Of a DNA stretch of 64,000 nt, positions 34,055 to 48,257 are shown in pieces (position 1 is the first letter of the stretch; the number at the start of each line of letters is the position of its first letter). The stretch lies in the NCBI RefSeq assembly GCF_031769215.1, contig NW_026782320.1, positions 62,001 to 126,000 on the forward strand. Reading direction: 5' to 3'. The notes beneath the pieces are model-generated. The model was not told the origin of the DNA, made no database searches, and saw only the letters and a list, made by a program, of their open reading frames with translations. Source of the stretch: Ylistrum balloti (Eukaryota). A program made the position numbers and the translations under genes.

Positions 34055-34990
34055 TGTAACGAACGACGTCTCGCGACCCGCTAGTGGCCGCACCGCGGAC
34101 GTCACCTCTGTAGTTACAATAATAAAAGTGCCCAATGGGTTCGACTGCCGCTTTCGCTTGCAGATTTCACAAACAAATTTCGACCAAGTACTGGCAATAA
34201 TGACGAGAAGAATTAAACAGATTCAACAATTTATTATATATTTTACAAGAGTAAAGTTTAGCATGAAAGACATTTAACCGGCTCAGTGAGTGTTTCTAAT
34301 TAACCCTAACAATGTACAGAAGCCACCTGAAATAAACTTTTACCTAAACTAACTATCAGGCAGGAACCAATGTCGTGGTTGTCGAAATTCTCTAGCTAAA
34401 TTAACTCTCGGCCCACGGAATCTGACACCGTTCCTGGGGGCGAGTCTCAAACCTCGCCGAACGGACAAATCTCCGCCACGTGACCGACTCCAAATTTACA
34501 AAGTCCAACTCAACACTACCGCCTTCTCCTACGTTCGTCTTGGCAAGGGGGGCACACAAAAATCAGCCTCACCGAACGGGAGAAAACTACTCCCCGAGAA
34601 TACCAATTCTCGAATTATCCACTATTTAACAAAATTTCAACAGCTAGCGAACGTTCCCCTCAATCACGACACAAGGTTCCAGCCAAAACTTAAGTCCGCA
34701 TAAATCGAAAAATATACCAAAATACACGGTCGGAAATCAAACCTATCGGGTTGTAGGTGGCAACTGATGTTTAGTAAACCATTTTATAACATTTTAGGGA
34801 AGAGATGGGCGCTGACAACACAAAAATCTAACAGATTACCCTGCCCGAATTTCAATACCGACCTATCGTATCTTGGCCTCCAAAGGAAGAGGCTGCGACG
34901 TCACTTTTTCTCCCAGAGTTCCTCGCTTCCTCGGACAGGGTTGTACTAAATTCCGGAAAAACGACACGAAGCGACCCACGCGTCGCTACA
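34055..34990 (-). repeat. 3' LTR
   Basis: TGTAACGAACG...GTCGCTACA, direct repeat of 40655-41592. Confidence 0.95.
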
Positions 34991-35099
34991 CACCCTCCAA
35001 CCACCCGGGCAGGCTACGACCGCGTAGCCGAGACTCAACTTACTGTTTCAAAATCCGTAAAATATTTCTATGTTAAGTAATGGCCTTTGTCCTGGTAAT

Positions 35100-35330
35100 A
35101 TTGACCTTTGGTCCAATGACCTTGGACTCGACTGACTATGACTCATTTCCTCTCAGGATGTCTTACAATTCCACCAGTGAACGACATAAACCTCGACCTT
35201 GACCTTTATTCGGCAATATCGACCTTTGACCTAGTGACCTTGGCTCCTTTACCTCTGATCCTTTCTATCTCATGATGTCTTGCCACAATTCCACCAGTGA
35301 AAGACAAACCCCGACCTTGACCTTTGACCT
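35100..35330 (-). promoter_or_regulatory. Two-copy repeat of about 120 bp carrying AGGTCA direct repeats
   Basis: TGACCTTTGACCT at 35318-35330 (perfect DR1), CGACCTTTGACCT at 35220, TGACCTTTGGTCC at 35102. Confidence 0.45.
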
Positions 35331-36239
35331 AGTTAAGGTTTGTCACCCATAATGGTAATGTATCACCAGGCTGGCCAACGATGGTTCCACATGGATTGCT
35401 GTTGAAACAACACGTGGTCCACAGGACAAACCAGGTGGGCCAAAGCCGCCCAAACTTCTCGGAACTGAACTTAAAATTAAAAGATTAGCCATGTGCTATC
35501 AATTGCCACATCCAACTCGACTCACAATAATAATAATAATATTAATAATAATAATGAACTATTGCATTTGATTAAGTACCATCATTTCCTCACTGGCCAA
35601 TAAATTTGAATGACATTTCATGTCTTTACATACAACAAAATTTCACCATTTGAAAATAATACCCAATGGAGGCAGGCCCCTATAGCATGAAGTTTAAAAT
35701 TACAATACAAAAATATTGGCATTATTACACATAATCTCAATTTCCAGATGACTCGGCCCAAGTCTTTATTACTATAATTGCTTGTACAATTTTAAATTAC
35801 AATCTACTAAAGATAAATTGGTTGGTATCTAAATGTCACTTATATAAAGTCTTGCTCAATTGTAATTTAGTTAAGAGTCACAACTGTATGATCAGATTTT
35901 TTTTTTTTTACTTTGGTGCAACTCCTGGAGCGTCAGCAAATAATTATTGCCAAACTTCAACAGTAAGTAATCAATATTACAAATATGTGCTTCCCATAAA
36001 ATAATGGGTCATGACAGTCCTTGTCCTCACATGGTTGTTTGTCTGGAATGTTTAAAGTTCTGGGAAGCACCATAAAATTTATAATTTTAAGCAGATGTTC
36101 TCAAGGTGCAGTTAACTCAGTTTCTGAACACTTTCAATCACAACAACTCCTGATCTCTTCAGGCTGTAGACACAATTTACATTCTCTCCACTGTGAGGAA
36201 AGTTTTTGGCATCCCTAAGCATGTTAAGCATCATTGAGC

Positions 36240-36615
36240 ATTTGCGAGCATCTTTTGAGCATTTTTCCACGAGTAGCACCAGATGTACATGGTAATGGTT
36301 GTTTAAGCACAGATGAGCACAATTGAGCATATTTTAAGCATCTTTGGAGCATTTTTCTATGAGTAGCACCAGATGTACATGGTAATGGTTGTTAAGCACA
36401 GATGAGCACACTTGAGCATATTTTAAGCCTCTTTGGAGCATTTTTCTATGGGTAGCACCCGATGTACATGGTAATAGTTGTTAAGCACAGATGAGCACAC
36501 TTGAGCATATTTTAAGCATCTTTGGAGCATTTTTTTTCTATGAGTAGCACCAGATGTACATGGTAATGGTTGTTTAAGCACAGATGAGCACAATTGAGCA
36601 TATTTTAAACATCTT
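36240..36615. repeat. Tandem repeat, about 90-bp unit, about 4 copies
   Basis: GAGTAGCACC anchors at 36271, 36361, 36450, 36542. Confidence 0.9.
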
Positions 36616-37393
36616 TCTAAGATAAGTGCATAATGTTCATGGTAATCATTCCTAGTGCTTAAGTTACAGATAATTCAGGCTAGCAGCCAATATAACAGTA
36701 CATTATTTGATTAGTATAATTTGAATTGATACACTGTGGGCCATTACTGTCATCTCCAAACAATCGAATTTTTACATTTTTATCTCAACAAGTTTAACTG
36801 GAACCAAGAAAAATATTCAGAGAGTACAGTTACAATTTTACTGTGTACATTACATTATAACAATTTGAACTACAGTTTACAATATAGAAGAACCCGACTA
36901 GTTATGGCTGCTGCTTAATCATTACATTCCATGTTCGAATTTCACTACTGGCTATCATGATGATCATTACTAGTCTATTAGTGGTACCTCAATATTATTA
37001 CCACAGTCGAATGAAAATATATAAATTCATCATTCCAGACTTCAGAAACCCCCCATTTTGAACAGAAATACCCGTATTAGCACTAGTCAGGTTCTTGGCT
37101 AAGGGGCAATACCTCCATAATCACCATCTCCTTGGTGGCAACATGATTTCCTCTCAGAGGTATTTACTTGTATAACAAAAATAAAAATAACAAAAATATA
37201 TGACATATATAAAATTAGCAAACTTGAAAAAAATATTCTGCTCCTCCTCCGGCGGCCAAGAGTTTTTCCCCCCTACCCACAGCTATCACTGGGGAAGCCA
37301 CCCTATACTAACATATGACTAAATTAAGCCGGTCCAGGCATTCGGACACCCTCCCCTATTCTAACTAAATGGCTGTGAATGGTGCTCCGCCCA

Positions 37394-37710
37394 AGTGTTG
37401 GTCGTATCAACTCTAGCCACAAGGACTAGAGCCCCACTCGAAGCCAACCTAACTAACCTACCAGGCCGAATAACCCACCCCATCAATTTTGAACCCTGGG
37501 AGAGTCAAGGCAAGGCTAATCTTGAGTGTTGGTCGTATCAACTCTGGCCACCCAGACCAGCCCCTACCCGGTGACCTCCCTTTCTAACCCAACCAAACTG
37601 TAAACCTATCTAACCTATCAAGCCGAATAACCCACCCTATGAATTTTGACTATGGGGGAGTCAGGACAAGGTTAATCGAAAGTGTTGGTCGTATCAACTC
37701 TGGCCACCCT
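37394..37710. repeat. Three copies of a conserved 26-nt motif with diverged spacers
   Basis: AGTGTTGGTCGTATCAACTCT(A/G)GCCAC at 37394, 37525, 37681; GCCGAATAACCCACCC twice between them. Confidence 0.8.
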
Positions 37711-37975
37711 GACCAACCCCGTCCAAGGGACCTCCCCCTCTATCCCAGCTACCTAAACTACTTGCCCAATTATCTCCCCTTGAACACCTGGCCCGACTTG
37801 TACTACCTATAACATGACACCAACTTATAAATTCCTATCACTCTATCTTAACTCGCTGTCTCCTCCCTTCCTGTTCCCATGCTCCCCTGCCTCTACCTAG
37901 AACCACCCCCCCCCCCCCACATCTAGAATTTACAGGACCCCCCCCCCCCCCCCCAGTCCAAGTTCAGTCCCTACC

Positions 37976-38559
37976 CTACGTTCGTCTTAACTCCCGGATG
38001 GCCAGGTGGCGGATCTCATGCAGGTACCTCCGCATCCCTGTGGGGTTCAGGTGCACACCGTCGCCCAGCAACCCCGGAGACAGCAGCCGCCGGCGGACCA
38101 CCAAATCCAAGCCCCGCTCCCGCAACTTGAAATTGAGGGCTAGGTTAAGGCGGGCCCGCCGCGCAGCATACTCCGCCGGGGTCACCGACCGAGGGCGCAG
38201 ACGCAGAAACACCTTCATGACCGCCACCCTGGCCACCCCCCATTTATCTAACCTGTCCAAAAGCCCCCTGAATAACCCCATAAACTGTGCTATGTTGAAA
38301 TCCCGATTACTAATGTCATTCCCCCCGATCTGTAATATCACCACCCCCGGCCTAAACCCCCCCGCCATCATGTCATCTACCAACCTCCATAGCGTCCAGA
38401 TATTCGCCCCCCCCCCCTCCCATAGAACCGCACCTCCACCCCCTGCAACCCCAAATTTTCTCTAAACCTCCCCTCCCACTCCCTCCTAACCTGGTTCTCC
38501 AGTCTGGTAATATAACTGTGTCCAATAAGGGCAACCTTTCCCGAAACAAATCTGTTCAT
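37976..38559 (-). CDS. SGNH/GDSL-type hydrolase, about 193 aa, split by a frameshift in an 11-G run
   Basis: Block I GHSY, block II GRGGA, block III QIGGND, block V DGVHL; 9 or 12 G at 38407-38417 would restore the frame; preceded by branch point, polypyrimidine tract and AG (38568-38601). Confidence 0.85.
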
Positions 38560-39375
38560 GGCGAAATCTAGGGAAGAGAGAAGAGGAAACAGGAGGTTAG
38601 GACGAATCAATTTGGTCTATATACAACATCACATCCTACTCAATTAAGTCACTAATGTCCGTAATGTTTAAAGATGTGTCTGACACGCTTCCCTGGGGGA
38701 GGGAAATTTGTTGTGGACGTCGACTCTGGTGTCCCACGGGCCCCTGGTTACCTGTCCTCGAGTTGCGCGCATACAGTTATTTACCACCAGAAACGAAAGT
38801 TCTCCTGATTGGGTGTGGAGGTCTCTCACCGCCAGGGACGTCTTCCTGTCTCCAGGTCTCCGAGTAGGTATTTGGGGGTCACTGCCACGTCTGGGGTGTG
38901 GCCACCACCCCAGGGGTCCATGGTGGCTATCCCAATGTTCAATCACCCGCGCACATAAGAGAAAACTGTATCATTGCAAATACCAAAGGTTCCTGGAGGG
39001 CGAGAGTCTCCCAGGACGTATCCAGCCGCAGCACTGCATGAACGTTATACCGATTCACCAATGGACAGGTCGCCGGCAGTTTCAGGGGCCCGGGTCATCC
39101 TCTTCTGTCTTTATCCCTCCCCCAGGTCAGGGGGTGTCAAGAGCACCATTTTACATGAAAGATAAAACAAGTATAGTTCAGACAGGATCTACATAATCTA
39201 AATTACTATACAGACATCTTCCCTAACCTACACAAATAAATGTACTGAAGGGCCAATCAGGTGAGGTCATAGGCCCCGGACCGCATCCAGTCGGGAGGCC
39301 GTCTACGACGCCTCCCCACTCGACGGTCCGGAGTTGCCCACAGGCTCCCCCGACGTCGCCATATTGATGCCGAAC

Positions 39376-40503
39376 TTAGCGCGGACGCCCGATCGACATA
39401 GAGCACCTGAAGCACTGAGGCCCCCTCTGAGCCTGGCCATAGTAATTTCCCTGACGGGGGGGTGGCTGATCTCCCCTACGATAATCCCTATCCCTATTAA
39501 ATCGGGCCTGTAACGCCTCTATCTTCTTAACAAGAGTGGCTATTTGTTCTTGCTCGGAGGTCCGAGCCTCCTCCCTCTCTACAACGGGGGATTCTGTTAA
39601 GCTATCGACCCCCCCCCCCCCCCCCGCTTGGGGTATCCTAGCAGACCCGCCTATCCGATCATAGCTCTCCTCATCAAGGGCCATACGAACGGCCTCTGCT
39701 AAACTGGAAGGCTTATTCCTTCTTAGCTGTTTCTGGACCTCCCGATTGTCCAGCGCATCGATAAAATGTTGGATCTCAATAATACTCCGCGTCTCCTGAT
39801 CAGAGTCTGGATAGGCCCGAGCCGCTATCCTTTGGATATACCCAGCCAACTCGGATAATGACTCCCCCTTCTTCCTAGTTTTTCCCCGAAGCTGGGCCCA
39901 GTACACACCCACATCCCTCTCGGGGTCAAATCTGGATTTAAGTGCCGACGTCACACTTTTATAGTCTAAGCGCTCTGTGGGGGTTAGATCACTATATACC
40001 CTAAGGGCCGTACCCTTGAGTTTCACAGCCAGGAATTGGCAAGCTTGAGCCTCTGTCCAAGCGTTAATGGTCTTGCAAGCCTCAAAGTGTGTAAACCAAT
40101 CTTTATAACTACCCTGGCCATTATAAGCTTCCGGGACAACTATGGGTTTGGGCAGGGGAACTAACTGGGGCGACTGGGGCCGAGTCGCCTGCGAAGGGGC
40201 TGCCCCGGGTCTTGATCTAGGGGTCGAGCCAGCAAGGGGTGTACTAAACCTAATCCTTGAAGGACTCCAGCTAGAGGGCTCCCTATTCGTACCTTGGCCT
40301 AGGCCGCGAGGGGACCCCGTATCTTGGGCGGCCTCCCCAATTTTGCCATCGCCCACCCCTTCCCTTTCACGAGCCGGCCGCCTTCCACGCGTTTCGCTCC
40401 TACACAACAGCTCATCTAATCTTTGGCGCATTGATTCTATCTGTATTCCGTAGTCCGGAATATCAAAATTAAACTCACCGCCCTCCGCCATCATTGCCAG
40501 CAC
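39376..40503 (-). CDS. Gypsy gag, 375 aa, zinc knuckle cut after CFRC
   Basis: PEAYNGQGSYKDWFTHFE...W...LAVKLKGTA..., ESLSELAGYIQRIAARAYP, HFIDAL, PQCFRC. Confidence 0.85.
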   Translation of the reverse strand: MLAMMAEGGEFNFDIPDYGIQIESMRQRLDELLCRSETRGRRPAREREGVGDGKIGEAAQDTGSPRGLGQGTNREPSSWSPSRIRFSTPLAGSTPRSRPGAAPSQATRPQSPQLVPLPKPIVVPEAYNGQGSYKDWFTHFEACKTINAWTEAQACQFLAVKLKGTALRVYSDLTPTERLDYKSVTSALKSRFDPERDVGVYWAQLRGKTRKKGESLSELAGYIQRIAARAYPDSDQETRSIIEIQHFIDALDNREVQKQLRRNKPSSLAEAVRMALDEESYDRIGGSARIPQAGGGGGVDSLTESPVVEREEARTSEQEQIATLVKKIEALQARFNRDRDYRRGDQPPPRQGNYYGQAQRGPQCFRCSMSIGRPR

Positions 40504-40654
40504 TTAATGACTAAGTTTTTAATAGAAGTAGTTATCAAACAGTCGAACCAATTTCAGATAGAATTATTTATAACTTATCTTGACCTTTAAACCTTAATTT
40601 TCCCTATACTCCTAATGGTATCTTTTTAGCACCTGTCCCGCCGGAGGTTCCAAT

Positions 40655-41592
40655 TGTAACGAACGACGTCTCGCGACCCGCTAGTGGCCGCACCGCGGAC
40701 GTCACCTCTGTAGTTACAATAATAAAAGTGCCCAATGGGTTCGACTGCCGCTTTCGCTTGCAGATTTCACAAACAAATTTCGACCAAGTACTGGCAATAA
40801 TGACGAGAAGAATTAAACAGATTCAACAATTTATTATATATTTTACAAGAGTAAAGTTTAGCATGAAAGACATTTAACCGGCTCAGTGAGTGTTTCTAAT
40901 TAACCCTAACAATGTACAGAAGCCACCTGAAATAAACACTTTTACCTAAACTAACTATCAGGCAGGAACCAATGTCGTGGTTGTCGAAATTCTCTAGCTA
41001 AATTAACTCTCGGCCCACGGAATCTGACACCGTTCCTCGGGGCGAGTCTCAAACCTCGCCGAACGGACAAATCTCCGCCACGTGACCGACTCCAAATTTA
41101 CAAAGTCCAACTCAACACTACCGCCTTCTCCTACGTTCGTCTTGGCAAGGGGGGCACACAAAAATCAGCCTCACCGAACGGGAGAAAACTACTCCCCGAG
41201 AATACCAATTCTCGAATTATCCACTATTTAACAAAATTTCAACAGCTAGCGAACGTTCCCCTCAATCACGACACAAGGTTCCAGCCAAAACTTAAGTCCG
41301 CATAAATCGAAAAATATACCAAAATACACGGTCGGAAATCAAACCTATCGGGTTGTAGGTGGCAACTGATGTTTAGTAAACCATTTTATAACATTTTAGG
41401 GAAGAGATGGGCGCTGACAACACAAAAATCTAACAGATTACCCTGCCCGAATTTCAATACCGACCTATCGTATCTTGGCCTCCAAAGGAAGAGGCTGCGA
41501 CATCACTTTTTCTCCCAGAGTTCCTCGCTTCCTCGGACAGGGTTGTACTAAATTCCGGAAAAACGACACGAAGCGACCCACGCGTCGCTACA
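40655..41592 (-). repeat. 5' LTR
   Basis: Direct repeat of 34055-34990. Confidence 0.95.
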
Positions 41593-42211
41593 ATTACACC
41601 CTCACTGTGGTAACAATATCAACAGATCTCGCCCATTTTTGCTGAGTTCAAGGCAGCTGTTATGTCTGTTGGTGATCCAGCACGAACAAAAAAGCTAATT
41701 TGTTTGGCAGACCACTAATAAATTTTGATAGAACCTCAAAACTTGGTTTCCCAATGATCTCCCCTTTCTCAACTACCTGGCAATGATGATCCTCTATTGG
41801 CTGACCAGGAAGGAGAACAAGTTTTGTAAAGTTCTCAGACTCTAAAAGCATCGCTGGACCATTTGAATATCCAATAAGAAAGCGCTGTTTAAAAAGATGT
41901 AGGATACTGTCCCAATTATCCTGTTCTGTCAAAGAATTGAACCATGTTAATGCAGGTCCTTTGCGGGGAAGATGAAAAGCAGCTATTTTCCGACTAGGAT
42001 ATAGGATAATCTAATTTTAGAAATACAGCATTGGAGGTGAATTCCTGATTCAAAATTTTCAAAATCTTTGTCAATTATCCTTGAAAAAATAAATTCATTA
42101 CTAGTAGTTGGATAATTTGGAAGAGATATGTCCTCTGATGGAAATGATGTAACTGGAAGTGGAATGTCACTGAAACTAGTAAAAGATGTGTTCAAAAATC
42201 TGAATTTGTAT
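41593..42211 (-). pseudogene. Old Gypsy gag remnant, middle piece
   Basis: AAFHL..KGPALTWFNSL, PGQPIED, KFISGLPNKLAF, FVRAGSPTD...SAKMGE; stops and frameshifts. Confidence 0.75.
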
Positions 42212-42341: not shown

Positions 42342-44775
42342 ATGGTAAACGTTTGTGTCGTGTACGACTGTCACAACCGTTCTTCCCAGGGTGTTGTTAA
42401 ACGTTCCTTTCATGCGATTCCGGCTATTATCACAACACAAGGCGAGAAGACGCAATAGCAAGGAAAGACTGGACACCAACGAAATATTCTAAAGTTTGCT
42501 CAGATCACTTCGTTTCAGGTATATTTATCACTAATTACATTGGCTAACATGAGCTTCTTTACCTGTTATAAAAATCGTTTGAGATGTTTTACTCTGAGGT
42601 TGGAAAGCTACAGCACGCATAAACACAAACAACGTGCGTTCAATGACCCATGTCTCTGTAAACAGCATATATATACATTCTTAAACCACTATACTTGTGT
42701 GTGTGTATTATCTGTAACGTTTCCATGCATAAGGTATTAACGTTAATTTTAATAACTTGATTTGTTGAAGGACGCATTGACGTTACATAGTCATAGGATG
42801 TACTGTATTGTAGCTCTATAACTTATTACTGATTGAAAAAGATCATGATAAAAACTGTGTTCTAGCTCGAATCATCATTAAAATAACTCTGTTTTTTTTT
42901 TCAGGAAAACCATTAGATCTGTACAACCAAAGTCATCCTGACTGGGCACCTTCCCTGAAACTTGGTCTTGCAAGATCTGGTGAGGAGAAAGCAAACACCT
43001 GTTCCCCAACATCGTTAGAAAGGTAAATTATAACTCTAACTAGGCCTATTCTAATTATTATCATTCATTTATTTTGTGGTAACATGTTCTCTGTAAATTT
43101 TCCCATTGCTTAGTTTCTAGTAATACATGTTTTCAAATAGATTAATTAGATTGTAATCTTTAGTAGCTAATTCTGTATTTTGTTTTTTGTGTTTTTTTTG
43201 TCATTAGTTATTACATGTGTACATATATTTTTTCCTAGTTTATATATTTTAATGTGAACATCATAATATTTTATCCGGGTAAAAGATTATATAACACACA
43301 ATACATTTATAAGTATCACAAGTAATTATTATTTATTATAGACACTCTCGCTTAAATTTACAATTGTATCTCAGAAAAGTAGTAATGTCCAAATGAAACC
43401 TTGGATATAAGTGAAAAAGCTTATTTCCAATTGGGGTCATCAGAACACCAAAGTGTATATCATTACTATCAATTCTTTATCTATCAAATGAATTGTATAT
43501 GGTACAAGTTATTGGTACCAGGTACATACATTCTTGTAAATAAAATGTGTAAGCAGCTGCACTATGAAATTTTATTTTGTCTTGTGTAATTTTAGATATT
43601 CCAGAGCTCTGGAGAGACAACACAAGAGGATTAAATACTCTGCAGCAGAGACTTTGCTGGAACTGGCAGATCCTGTTCTCACTGCAAGCCCATCAGATGT
43701 GACCATACCATGTAGTACTAGTAAAACGTATACTTTTCGTTTGATGGGTAAGCTTGACCCAAGAAGTACTGATCAACAGACAGAAGGACCAAGTGTAGAC
43801 CAGATCCGAGAGGACCACCAAAATCTGACCACTGAAAACTTGGATTTAAGGAAGAAGTTACAAGAGCAGGACATCACACCAGAGTCTCTAAAAGACAAGG
43901 ATGAGAAGGTGAAATATTTCACAGGTCTTCCTGGATATTTAAGCCTGATGGCATTATTCAATTTTTTGGATCCACACATCAGTGGCAACGGCAGAAATAT
44001 TTTAACAAACTTTCAGAAATTGTTTTTGGTGCTGATGAAGCTTCGACTAGACCTGAGTGTGCAAGATTTAGCTTACCGATTTGGTGTATCTGCATCAACA
44101 GTATCCAGAACATTCAACCGTGTTATACATATCATGTATGTTAGAATGAAAGATCTAATCATGTGGCCCGACCGAGAACAGTTGAGATCTACTATGCCCA
44201 TGGAGTTTAGAAAGAACTTTGGTCTTAAAGTTGCCGTTATCATAGATTGTTTCGAGATTTTTATCGAAAGACCGTCAAATCTTCTTGCTCGTGCTGAAAC
44301 CTGGTCGAATTATAAACATCATAATACCATCAAGTTTCTTATTGGTGTTACACCACAAGGAGTTGTGTCATTCCTGTCACCAGGCTGGGGTGGACGAACC
44401 AGTGACAAACAGATTACTGAAAATTGTGACTTACTACAACACTTGTTACCAGGTGATCTAGTTTTAGCAGATCGTGGTTTTGACATTGCAGAAAGTGTAG
44501 GATTGAAGTGTGCCGAGGTAAAAATCCCAGCTTTCACAAAAGGAAAAAAACAGTTGTCAGCCTTGGAAGTAGAACAGACCAGGAAAATCGCCCATGTCAG
44601 GATACATGTAGAACGAGTGATTGGACTTGTGCGCAATAAATACACTATTCTCAAAGGAACACTACCCATTGACTATTTACAAAGTGATCATGAAGAAGTG
44701 CCATTAGTGGACAAGATAGTTACAGTTTGCTGTGCTCTGACAAATCTATGTGATTCTGTTGTACCTTTCAATTGA
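42342..44775 (+). pseudogene. THAP-DDE transposase, exons 42342-42518, 42905-43022, 43596-44775; frameshifting deletion in THAP exon
   Basis: CVVYDCHN...KVCSDHF; VIIDCFE, LADRGF, HVERVIG; THAP lacks its central segment (EKTQ-stop). Confidence 0.85.
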
Positions 44776-45487
44776 CCTGACTTTGCTTAACATATATTAT
44801 GGTTCAGTATAATATCTAAAAAATGATCTGTGATATTAATGTGATGTACATTAGTTCTAGTGTTTATTGTATCTTGTTTAACTGGCTTTGTTACACAATC
44901 AGTTACAGATTGTTAAATTTTATACTGGTCAGCAAAATCAGTCCCTGCATGTAATATTGTACTGGAAAGGTAAAGTCACAATTTCAGTTTTCTGTGATAG
45001 AAATGTTAATTTATGCGAGATTGTCTGTGATAATTACTTGTAATACTAAATGTACTGTACAACTAAGTGTAGTCACAAGTTGATAAAAGCTGTTTATTTG
45101 TTAACCTGTATTTTGAGGAAATGTAAGAAAGTGATAAACATATGATTAATAAACATGTACAGGATTCTGAAATATTAAAACCATTGACTTGTATTCTTGT
45201 ATTATACATTGTCCTCATTATGAATTATTCAGTTGGTGTGGGAGGAAATTGAGGATATTCACATGAATCAGTGCTTGTCTTGATGTAGAAAAGTTTTGTC
45301 TGACAAGATTAAATTTAAGTACTGGCAATTCCAGCAAATCGGAGTCCCTCAACAAAATCTAGGAATAATCTTGTAGAGAATAGTATTACATTTAAGTGTT
45401 ATGCCAAGTTTTCCAGAGAGTGTGCATGGTCAATTTCATAATTCATGTACAACAATTCTTAAAAACCAGCAATCAGCAAAACCTAGA

Positions 45488-45680
45488 TTTGTTTGTTTGT
45501 TGTGTTTATCGCCCTGTGAACAGCCAAGGTCATTTTGAGGCGGGGGTCTCCTTGTAGTAGTTTGTGACTACCTCACTGAACAACACGCGGGAGGCCCGTC
45601 GTATGTCATCAAAAGAAATTAGGGTAAAGTGTCTTGCCAAGGACACAACCAACGACAGCACAGACCGGTCAGTCCTCAGG
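45488..45680 (-). mobile_element. 5'-truncated SINE
   Basis: Minus-strand (AAAC)n tail at 45488; GTTGTGTCCTTGGCAAGACACTTTACC core typical of tRNA-derived SINEs. Confidence 0.65.
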
Positions 45681-46264
45681 CAAAAAAAATGGGGTTTCAT
45701 TTACTCTGAATGCTCTCTGAATGGCATGGAGAGGTCATCATCACAATTATTAAAAAAGATGTCAGGCTTTTTTTTTCCCTTGGAGAACAATTTGACAATA
45801 GGCATTAAAGATAAGGATTGATTCACATAAATTTGCTCGTACATGTAAGCGAGTAGTAGATAGCAGCTACTAGGAAAGATGAAACATTTTTTTTCTCCTT
45901 GGCAAAAATCACATTGTTATAAAACAAAAATAAAAACACAAGAAAAATATATCTTTTTCAGATTTAATAGACTAAATACCCCAGATAAATTTTACATGAT
46001 GAAATTGTACAATTAATCTTAGTTCAGAAGAGAAGGTACAATGTACATGATCATCGGAAGATAAATCTTTACTATAATTCCTACTGATAGATGTAAGGAC
46101 CTGAAAACAAGCTAAACCAATAATAATATATAGCTGGACATCAGGATTATATATATTACAGTAATAATTCCATCAATTAATCCTTAGATACTACCATTTA
46201 ATATTGTAATAATTGAATGATCATCATGCATGATTTCATATTTATACGTTCACGTTCATTTGAA

Positions 46265-48132
46265 TCACATTTTTCTGCACTCTTGACAAAACCAGTCACC
46301 TTTTGGTATTCTCTTAATTTTTACACACTTGAAGTGGAGCCATACATAGGGACAGTTTTCATTGTCGCATCCAATTACAGAATCTGTATCTGGGTTGTAT
46401 ACAGACTGACACACACATATCAACCTGTTCGAATCTTCACTGGTGTCCTGTACACTTACACTGGGAGAAATGTCTGTTCTTTGTTCCGCAGAGTTAATGA
46501 TAGATGATGTAGCCAAAGGACGAGAGTATAGCTTTCCGATCAATTCAGGTAATATCGCCCTCAAAAAGAAAGTCGACGACTTCTTCACAATTTCCTTGCA
46601 AAGTTCCTGGTCTACATCTATTCTCTCTGCATGATAGTCCACATTTGTCCACACAACAAAGTCTGAGTACTCTTTCTCACAAACAAAGAGTTGACGCTGG
46701 ATTTGGTAGTAATATTGGTGGGTCTTTTTTAATCTAAGCTGGTCCCCATGCTTTTCTAGACAGAAGTTGCTATCCAGTGAGTCTTTAATAACTGAATCCC
46801 TCTTACAATAAGGACACTTGATTTCAATACATACTTCACCACAACAGTCACAGGAAGCAATACCATCTGGTGAGGCTCCAATAAAGGGATATTTCTCACT
46901 AATGACAAATCCACTGTCCCGTACACTGAAGTTTTCATGGTCCTTTTGCATCAGTTGGGTGTACGACTTGAGCGCCTCTTTTTCATGCTGACATCCCCAT
47001 TTTGTTGCCTTTGTTGTGAACTTGTTCACGTTCGGATAGCAAGCAAATAGACTTCACTAAACTCTGTGAAGGGTTGTCCACTGATGTCTTGTACACGTTC
47101 TTCATCCGTGACGCAGTTATTCGTCCAGTTCTGAATCGATGCCATTCACGGCTCTTTGCTTGCTCGCGTGTAAGTTCTTCAGCATTTTTGATTTCCTCTG
47201 GTTCAATCGTAATGTCTTTCATAACTTCCTCGCAATGTTTTAGCAAATGTTCCTTGTCTACATTTACATATTTCTCATCCTGCAATTCTGACAAGACTAG
47301 TGGATATTTCTTGCTCAGCACATTTGGAATGTAGTGTTCACTATACTCTGGTATAAGAGACAACAACACTGGTCTTGATCCAGAGGAGTGTAACGCAGAA
47401 AATAAAGTTCTGAGTTCATCACTTGTTGGTTTGGCAACATCTGGGACAGATTTTTTAACAGGTGGAGTGAAAGATGCGTTAGCAATACATTTATCCAACT
47501 TCGTTTTCTTGGTTTTGGCTGAGGTGAAGTCAATTTCCCGAACTGTCTTACCTTTGACTTTCTTAACTGAGGAAGGGAGAAGCCAATACGCCTTGTCTTG
47601 TGTAACTGTCTGAGAATCTCTTGAGTTTCACTGACGCATCACGCGCAAACATGAGTGCACCGACATGACTACAAGACTCGCCAAGTCCAGCCATACAGTT
47701 ACAATGGGCAGCCATGACCTTACCGTTATTCTCTGCCATCAACCACGGGTGTAATGGTGAGTCATTCATACACTGAGAATGGCGGACTCGTGCCGATATC
47801 AGGCGTAAATCATTATCCATCTTCACAGAACCGAGATCTCTCACCCAACCACTGACGAAATAGTTGTACGATTCTAGCGATTTATAAGCCTTCAAATTGT
47901 CCAGAGTGTAAGCACTTTGAGTGTTGACTAAATAGTTCACGATATCTGGGTATGCGATGGCAGGCAGTTCGTGGACATCGTCACTCCATTCTGACTTCGT
48001 AAGTTCGTATGGGTCCTTTCCACCGATAATGCTGATTTTCTGGTCATATCTGGCTTTAGAAATCACATCCAGGGTATCTCTGTAACGTTCCTTACTAGCA
48101 AGCTTCGGTTTGGAAGGTTTGTAATCACTCAT
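46265..48132 (-). pseudogene. SWIM-YqaJ-PHD accessory gene of element 2, intronless, two frameshifts
   Basis: AHCNCMAGLGESCSH (SWIM), RITAS, GASPDG, EIKCPY, YYYQIQ (YqaJ), terminal PHD (CVC...IGCDNENC...WLHFKCV...WFCQEC); 1-nt insertion near 47620 and 4-bp duplication near 47040. Confidence 0.88.
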
Positions 48133-48257
48133 CCTTGTTGACATCAAAGGTCGAAAATTTGCACACAAAATAACGCCCACTGATTTTCCGCTTGACCTAC
48201 AAGATGGCCGCGTTCAATCGAAGTGCCCGGATGTACGGATCAGTGAAAACTAAGAAT

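What the first reader, a model, noticed from the sequence alone, without database searches (positions are those of the whole stretch)
37976..38601. SGNH hydrolase in the env position of an LTR element, with an env-like splice acceptor
Seen: all four SGNH blocks (GHS, GxGG, GGND, DGVH); 8 nt before the ATG (GCCATG) lies CCTAAC + long pyrimidine tract + TAG. The only lesion is an 11-G run. Known: SGNH esterases occur in some LINE ORF1s, DIRS/Ngaro elements and as extra ORFs of some invertebrate LTR elements; env genes are expressed from spliced subgenomic RNA. Inference: a spliced, lipid- or acetyl-ester-modifying accessory protein retained although pol was lost.
Basis: partly seen in the sequence, partly recalled or inferred. 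Interest (0 to 1): 0.72.

Follow-up and report, generated by a model that had tools for sequence, protein, structure and literature searches.

The report
Gypsy retrotransposon's dispensable esterase gene
This jumping gene carries an extra esterase-type gene behind a strong splice signal, likely made from a spliced RNA and likely helping the element at cell membranes; most copies have lost the gene, and similar extras are already known from rotifer jumping genes.

Summary
A Ty3/Gypsy element (minus strand, 41592-34055; LTRs differ at 2 of 936 bases; TAAT target duplication) carries an SGNH hydrolase ORF (38559-37976) with all four catalytic blocks. Its frame shifts in an 11-G run; a sibling copy reads open. 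The upstream acceptor is the best of 508 AG sites in the element, and the best donor-like site in LTR/leader/gag lies in gag codon 5, in phase. Splicing is predicted, not shown. The ORF was under purifying selection (dN/dS about 0.09-0.37 between copies), and a second Gypsy family has a decayed orthologue after its integrase. The 'retained although pol was lost' story fails: pol-bearing siblings exist, only 4 of 27 loci keep a near-full ORF (1 open), and 15 share one deletion that removes it and has spread to about 10 insertion sites. The protein has no envelope features. GDSL/SGNH ORF3s are published for bdelloid Vesta LTR elements, and this scan noted Gypsy or copia elements with SGNH domains in other genomes. 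Verdict: new lineage of a known kind.

The parts
40655..41592 (-). 5' LTR (TG...CA); TATA-like 41390, Inr-like 41369, AATAAA 40835
   Evidence: promoter and polyA roles inferred from motifs
40635..40654 (-). Primer-binding-site-like sequence after the 5' LTR; priming tRNA not identified
   Evidence: first 10 bases identical behind the complete 5' LTRs listed
40473..40478 (-). Predicted splice donor (G|GTGAGT) in gag codon 5, in phase with the SGNH ORF
   Evidence: top of 141 GT sites in LTR+leader+gag (matrix from recall); present in the copies listed except C1229; absent from the SGNH-less sister C373
39376..40491 (-). gag ORF; its last codons are replaced at the pol-deletion junction
   Evidence: weak Ty3_capsid hit E 0.044, below cut-off
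39306..39404 (-). pol deletion junction and remnant of the pol 3' end (about 3.8 kb missing against pol-bearing siblings)
38568..38601 (-). Branch point, pyrimidine tract and TAG: predicted splice acceptor
37976..38559 (-). SGNH/GDSL hydrolase ORF3 (193 aa in the open sibling; pI 11.6; no signal peptide or TM segment); frame shifts here in the G-run 38417-38407
37876..38634 (-). Segment removed by one shared deletion in 15 of 27 family loci (acceptor plus whole ORF)
   Evidence: a joint at 37876|38643 also in contigs of run X24
34991..37875 (-). Long non-coding 3' region with about 156-bp and 89-bp tandem repeats; purine-rich tract before the 3' LTR
34055..34990 (-). 3' LTR; 2 substitutions in 936 bases against the 5' LTR; TAAT duplicated on both flanks

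Best explanation
This is a pol-deleted copy of a young Ty3/Gypsy family whose third gene encodes an SGNH hydrolase, likely expressed from a spliced subgenomic RNA and likely acting as a membrane-binding accessory esterase that copies do not need in cis. Shown: anatomy, fold, catalytic residues, purifying selection, frequent loss. Inferred: the LTR transcript is spliced from a donor in gag codon 5 to the acceptor at 38568, which puts a few Gag and linker residues in frame before the ORF's own Met (that Met could also be the start). The product would be a small, soluble, very basic enzyme that, like the ZfL2-1 esterase, binds anionic phospholipids and hydrolyses short acyl esters, helping the particle reach or cross internal membranes. 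It would work in trans, as Pol does for this copy. Its presence here is a by-product of where the pol deletion fell, and the break at the G-run is a homopolymer error or slip.
For: LTRs, TSD and gag. Siblings with PR-RT-RH-IN pol upstream of the same 3' region. AlphaFold pLDDT 94.5, SGNH matches Z 17-19, rmsd 2.2-4.0 over 160-182 residues; best sequence hit in PDB is the LINE ORF1 esterase 4c1b, E 2e-12. S15, G50, N80, D166, H169 at least 90% conserved in 68 homologues. Against the open copy: C821 17 synonymous/5 non-synonymous, C1295 24/20, window 5/2; NG86 dN/dS 0.09, 0.25, 0.13. Acceptor rank 1 of 508; donor rank 1 of 141 and in phase, missing in the SGNH-less sister. A second Gypsy family with 40% identical integrase has a decayed orthologue in the same place (3 of 3 loci checked; same clade). 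Frame breaks in three near-full copies fall at Gly-rich codons 51, 67 and 78. [quoted passage not shown]
Against: Phase agreement has a 1-in-3 chance, 4 of the 5 top gag donors printed were in phase, and pol holds stronger donor-like sites (scores 11.2, 10.7, 9.6, 8.6 against 8.5). The donor bases are also gag coding sequence. The second family shows no clear pyrimidine tract before its decayed ORF. No copy among 26 had gag, pol and a full ORF3 together (several are cut by contig ends). The protein lacks the His/Ser pair and coiled coil of LINE esterases, so the membrane role is analogy only. dS in the ORF (0.13) far exceeds flank divergence (0.016-0.021), so the selection signal largely predates the present burst.
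Confidence: 0.62

Rival explanations
1. The esterase was useful to ancestors but is now decaying cargo; the family currently spreads with no contribution from it, in cis or in trans.
For: 15 of 27 loci share one deletion of acceptor and ORF, at about 10 different flanks, five of them with LTR pairs differing at 0-2 bases. Pol-bearing copies C55, C29 and C658x lack it. Sister C373 lacks it. Contigs of runs X1, X2 and X5 from two other coded organisms join across the ORF with other breakpoints. The second family's orthologue is dead.
Against: Synonymous excess even between window and C1316 (5:2, p 0.03). One open copy exists and could supply the protein in trans. This window's ORF-bearing copy is itself very young.
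Confidence: 0.25
2. One reading: pol-less copies keep the esterase because it is selected in them.
For: Two of the four near-full ORFs, including the only open one, are in pol-less copies.
Against: Of 8 copies with full gag and no pol, 4 lack the ORF and 2 are partly deleted. The same ORF deletion occurs with and without pol, as expected from recombination between modules.
Confidence: 0.07
3. The ORF is functional but expressed without this splice, from an internal promoter or its own ATG; the pyrimidine tract has another role.
For: Good start context (purine at -3 in all copies shown); the closest homologues begin with Met at about the same place (their starts are gene-caller choices); 660 bases of non-coding DNA lie upstream.
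Against: Branch point, tract and YAG together are unique in the window.
Confidence: 0.06

Closest known systems
GDSL/SGNH ORF3 of bdelloid rotifer Vesta LTR retrotransposons (Rodriguez et al. 2017, PMC5408684; passages and section 3.6 read)
   Same: Separate SGNH ORF after pol in place of env; catalytic residues intact; no TM or coiled coil; missing from some related lineages; function untested.
   Different: No dUTPase found in this pol; ORF 0.58 kb against 1.3-kb GDSL amplicons; explicit acceptor and gag-donor prediction here; purifying selection seen here whereas intragenomic variation there was reported as mostly neutral. Common origin not tested (no Vesta sequences in hand).
ORF1 esterase of non-LTR elements, ZfL2-1 (PDB 4c1b; Schneider et al. 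2013, PMC3905857; parts 2-3 of 6 read)
   Same: SGNH fold, triad and oxyanion residues, high pI; best PDB sequence hit.
   Different: Stand-alone ORF3, no coiled coil; His191 and Ser228 positions hold Gln and Met here (read).
Hydro-SGNH ORF of Ngaro-like YR retrotransposons (PMC9210276; passages read)
   Same: Small stand-alone SGNH ORF; relatives of about 30% identity lie beside RT or tyrosine-recombinase ORFs in this genome.
   Different: Host is an integrase LTR element; its SGNH falls in a separate clade from those (midpoint root, support 95/90).
Errantivirus env (PMC12992720, PMC13669377; passages read)
   Same: Third-ORF position; predicted spliced subgenomic RNA; a donor inside gag is reported for the idefix subclade.
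   Different: Not a glycoprotein: no signal peptide or TM segment; an enzyme fold.

Membership tests
Ty3/Gypsy LTR retrotransposon | TG...CA LTRs, short TSD, PBS, PPT | tested here: met
   priming tRNA not identified
Ty3/Gypsy LTR retrotransposon | pol order PR-RT-RH-IN | tested here: met
   Pfam on sibling C658x; deleted in the window copy
SGNH hydrolase | Ser, Gly, Asn, Asp-x-x-His in blocks I, II, III, V and flavodoxin-like fold | tested here: met
SGNH hydrolase | ester hydrolysis | not testable with these tools
   needs assay
Envelope protein | signal peptide and TM anchor | tested here: not met
   maximum Kyte-Doolittle 19-mer 1.04; a beta strand of the fold starts at residue 7
Envelope protein | expressed from spliced subgenomic RNA | tested here: inconclusive
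   signals predicted; see Tried and rejected for reads
Vesta-type GDSL ORF3 | separate intact GDSL ORF after pol | tested here: met
Vesta-type GDSL ORF3 | belongs to the rotifer Vesta lineage (pol phylogeny; dUTPase in three rotifer lineages) | tested here: inconclusive
   no dUTPase hit at E 0.01; no tree with Vesta sequences
Non-LTR ORF1 esterase | transposon-specific His191/Ser228 pair and N-terminal coiled coil | tested here: not met
   Gln76 invariant in the clade, Met at the Ser position, no N-terminal extension

The most novel reading that the evidence does not exclude
A distinct Gypsy lineage has for a long time used a spliced, Gag-tagged lipid esterase in place of env to get its particles across membranes or between cells, and the family now works as complementing partners: pol-bearing copies without the esterase and pol-less copies that supply it in trans.
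Probability: 0.08. Interest if true: 0.72.

Novelty: new member of a known kind. Interest (0 to 1): 0.36.

Why it matters
SGNH esterases recur in LINEs, Ngaro, Penelope-like and LTR elements, and their role in transposition is still open. This family offers exact splice coordinates to test, a small well-folded enzyme, and natural with/without variants of the same young element. That makes the question easier to test, but the arrangement itself is published.

Tried and rejected
RNA evidence: no RNA holder listed (23 runs only guessed to be RNA). The joints across the ORF do not have intron ends, so they are deletions. Run X24 has a contig over 38074-38601 with one gap whose place was not shown; it may be the window's own sample. 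No spliced retrocopy (acceptor replaced by upstream exon) among the 28 DNA hits. Context of outside homologues not obtained: two metagenome scans and one viral scan gave no usable locus; cluster look-up gave no informative names. A search with P0002 found no further intact family of this clade in the genome. CpG decay as the cause of synonymous excess rejected: 3 of 22 and 8 of 47 changes were CpG-type. Envelope identity rejected. No tRNA in the window. Look-up of earlier findings by sequence was empty. Literature searches found only PMC5408684 for an SGNH ORF3 in LTR elements; subscription journals and repeat-database reports are not covered, and no supplements were read.

Full report
1. Observation. 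On the minus strand an ATG at 38559 opens a frame with IGHS; the frame shifts in an 11-G run (38417-38407) and continues with GGND and DGVH to a stop at 37976. The 3' piece hits Pfam GDSL_2 at E 7e-8. A sibling on contig C1316 reads open for 193 codons and differs from the window by one indel at that run and 7 substitutions. The acceptor-like sequence is real and unusual: first of 508 AG sites in the element, the only site of its quality among 7085 in the window, and none in 300 simulations (threshold set after the fact).

2. The element. LTRs lie at 41592-40655 and 34990-34055, differ at 2 of 936 bases, end TG...CA and are flanked by TAAT. Gag follows; about 3.8 kb of pol is missing. [quoted passage not shown] The SGNH ORF is therefore ORF3 of a gag-pol-ORF3 Gypsy family, and the window copy is an internal-deletion derivative moved in trans.

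3. Census. Of 27 loci anchored just downstream of the ORF, 4 are near full-length (window, C1316, C821, C1295), 5 are partial and 18 lack it or keep under 50 bases; 15 share one junction, 38634|37876, that removes acceptor and ORF. Only C1316 is open. The deleted form sits at about 10 different flanks, two pairs of contigs being the same site, and five have LTR pairs with 0-2 differences, so it has kept moving. Among 26 copies mapped by module, 7 hold 40% or more of pol and 4 hold 95% or more of ORF3; only C821 is in both sets, and none had all three genes (contig ends cut several). Of 8 copies with full gag and no pol, 2 keep the ORF. Searches score only the best candidates, so counts are lower bounds. 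Contigs of three runs from two other coded organisms also join across the ORF, with different breakpoints.

4. Selection and depth. Against the open copy, synonymous/non-synonymous counts were 5/2, 17/5, 24/20, 14/12 and 21/14 (NG86 dN/dS 0.13, 0.09, 0.25, 0.36, 0.21), near gag and pol controls (0.24 and 0.12 against the sister C373). Synonymous divergence in the ORF exceeds that of its flanks, and C821 shares many 5'-half changes with C1295, which suggests two older alleles recombining onto a young backbone. A second Gypsy family (integrase 40% identical) has a decayed orthologue about 0.9 kb after the integrase match in 3 of 3 loci. It groups with this protein and six outside proteins of 34-50% identity (long branch). 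The gene is old in this lineage and repeatedly lost.

5. Protein. AlphaFold gives a confident model (pLDDT 94.5) matching SGNH hydrolases. The best PDB sequence hit is the ZfL2-1 ORF1 esterase. Catalytic residues are conserved in 68 homologues. It is basic (pI 11.6; close homologues 9.7-11.0) with no signal or TM segment. It lacks the His/Ser pair that Schneider et al. found specific to non-LTR esterases.

6. Expression model. The best donor-like site among 141 GT sites in LTR, leader and gag lies 13 coding bases after the conserved gag ATG; with the 8 bases after the acceptor this is in phase with the ORF. The diverged sister C373, which lacks the ORF, lacks this donor. Caveats: recalled matrix, 1-in-3 phase chance, stronger sites in pol, one comparison only. 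Splicing from within gag is reported for idefix-type env (PMC12992720, passages). Read data did not settle it.

7. Mechanism. Most likely a spliced, soluble, basic esterase that binds anionic lipids and assists particle trafficking, by analogy with ZfL2-1 (PMC3905857), supplied in trans and unnecessary in cis (0.62). Main rival: cargo no longer used (0.25).

8. Novelty. Rodriguez et al. 2017 (PMC5408684) describe GDSL ORF3s in rotifer LTR elements; no other such paper appeared. Unchecked notes of this scan report SGNH domains in Gypsy and copia elements of other genomes. New here: a separate SGNH clade, concrete splice coordinates, evidence of selection and of recurrent loss. New member of a known kind; interest 0.36.

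Noticed in passing
G000 C521:28267-34558, C717:10703-12682, C1228:14337-16317: Tandem arrays of a unit of about 1.44 kb made of a gag fragment, the acceptor and a truncated SGNH ORF (5, 2 and 2 units).
   Followed up: partly
L079-L097 (own genome): At least seven other SGNH ORF families, about 26-37% identical; several lie upstream of RT or tyrosine-recombinase ORFs, one near a LINE endonuclease. L083 and L091 lie between direct repeats of 306 and 180 bases with no pol seen. L084/L092 show a short intron-like pattern before the ATG.
   Followed up: partly
window 43540-48213: DDE_Tnp_4 transposase facing opposite-strand ORFs that look like a YqaJ-type nuclease with PHD finger and a SWIM motif; recalled as Kolobok-like, not tested.
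   Followed up: no
window 41660-42010 (-): The element sits beside a decayed gag-like ORF with no Pfam hit; possibly nested in an older element.
   Followed up: partly
window 37906-37954, 38407-38417, 39609-39625: Long G runs on the element's sense strand; gag frames of several sibling copies end at the Gly-rich run, so homopolymer errors may be common in this assembly.
   Followed up: partly
P0073, P0124, P0043: Distant homologues fuse the SGNH domain to NADAR or DUF4326 domains.
   Followed up: no
G000 C658, C1030, C521: Tandem elements sharing a middle LTR.
   Followed up: no
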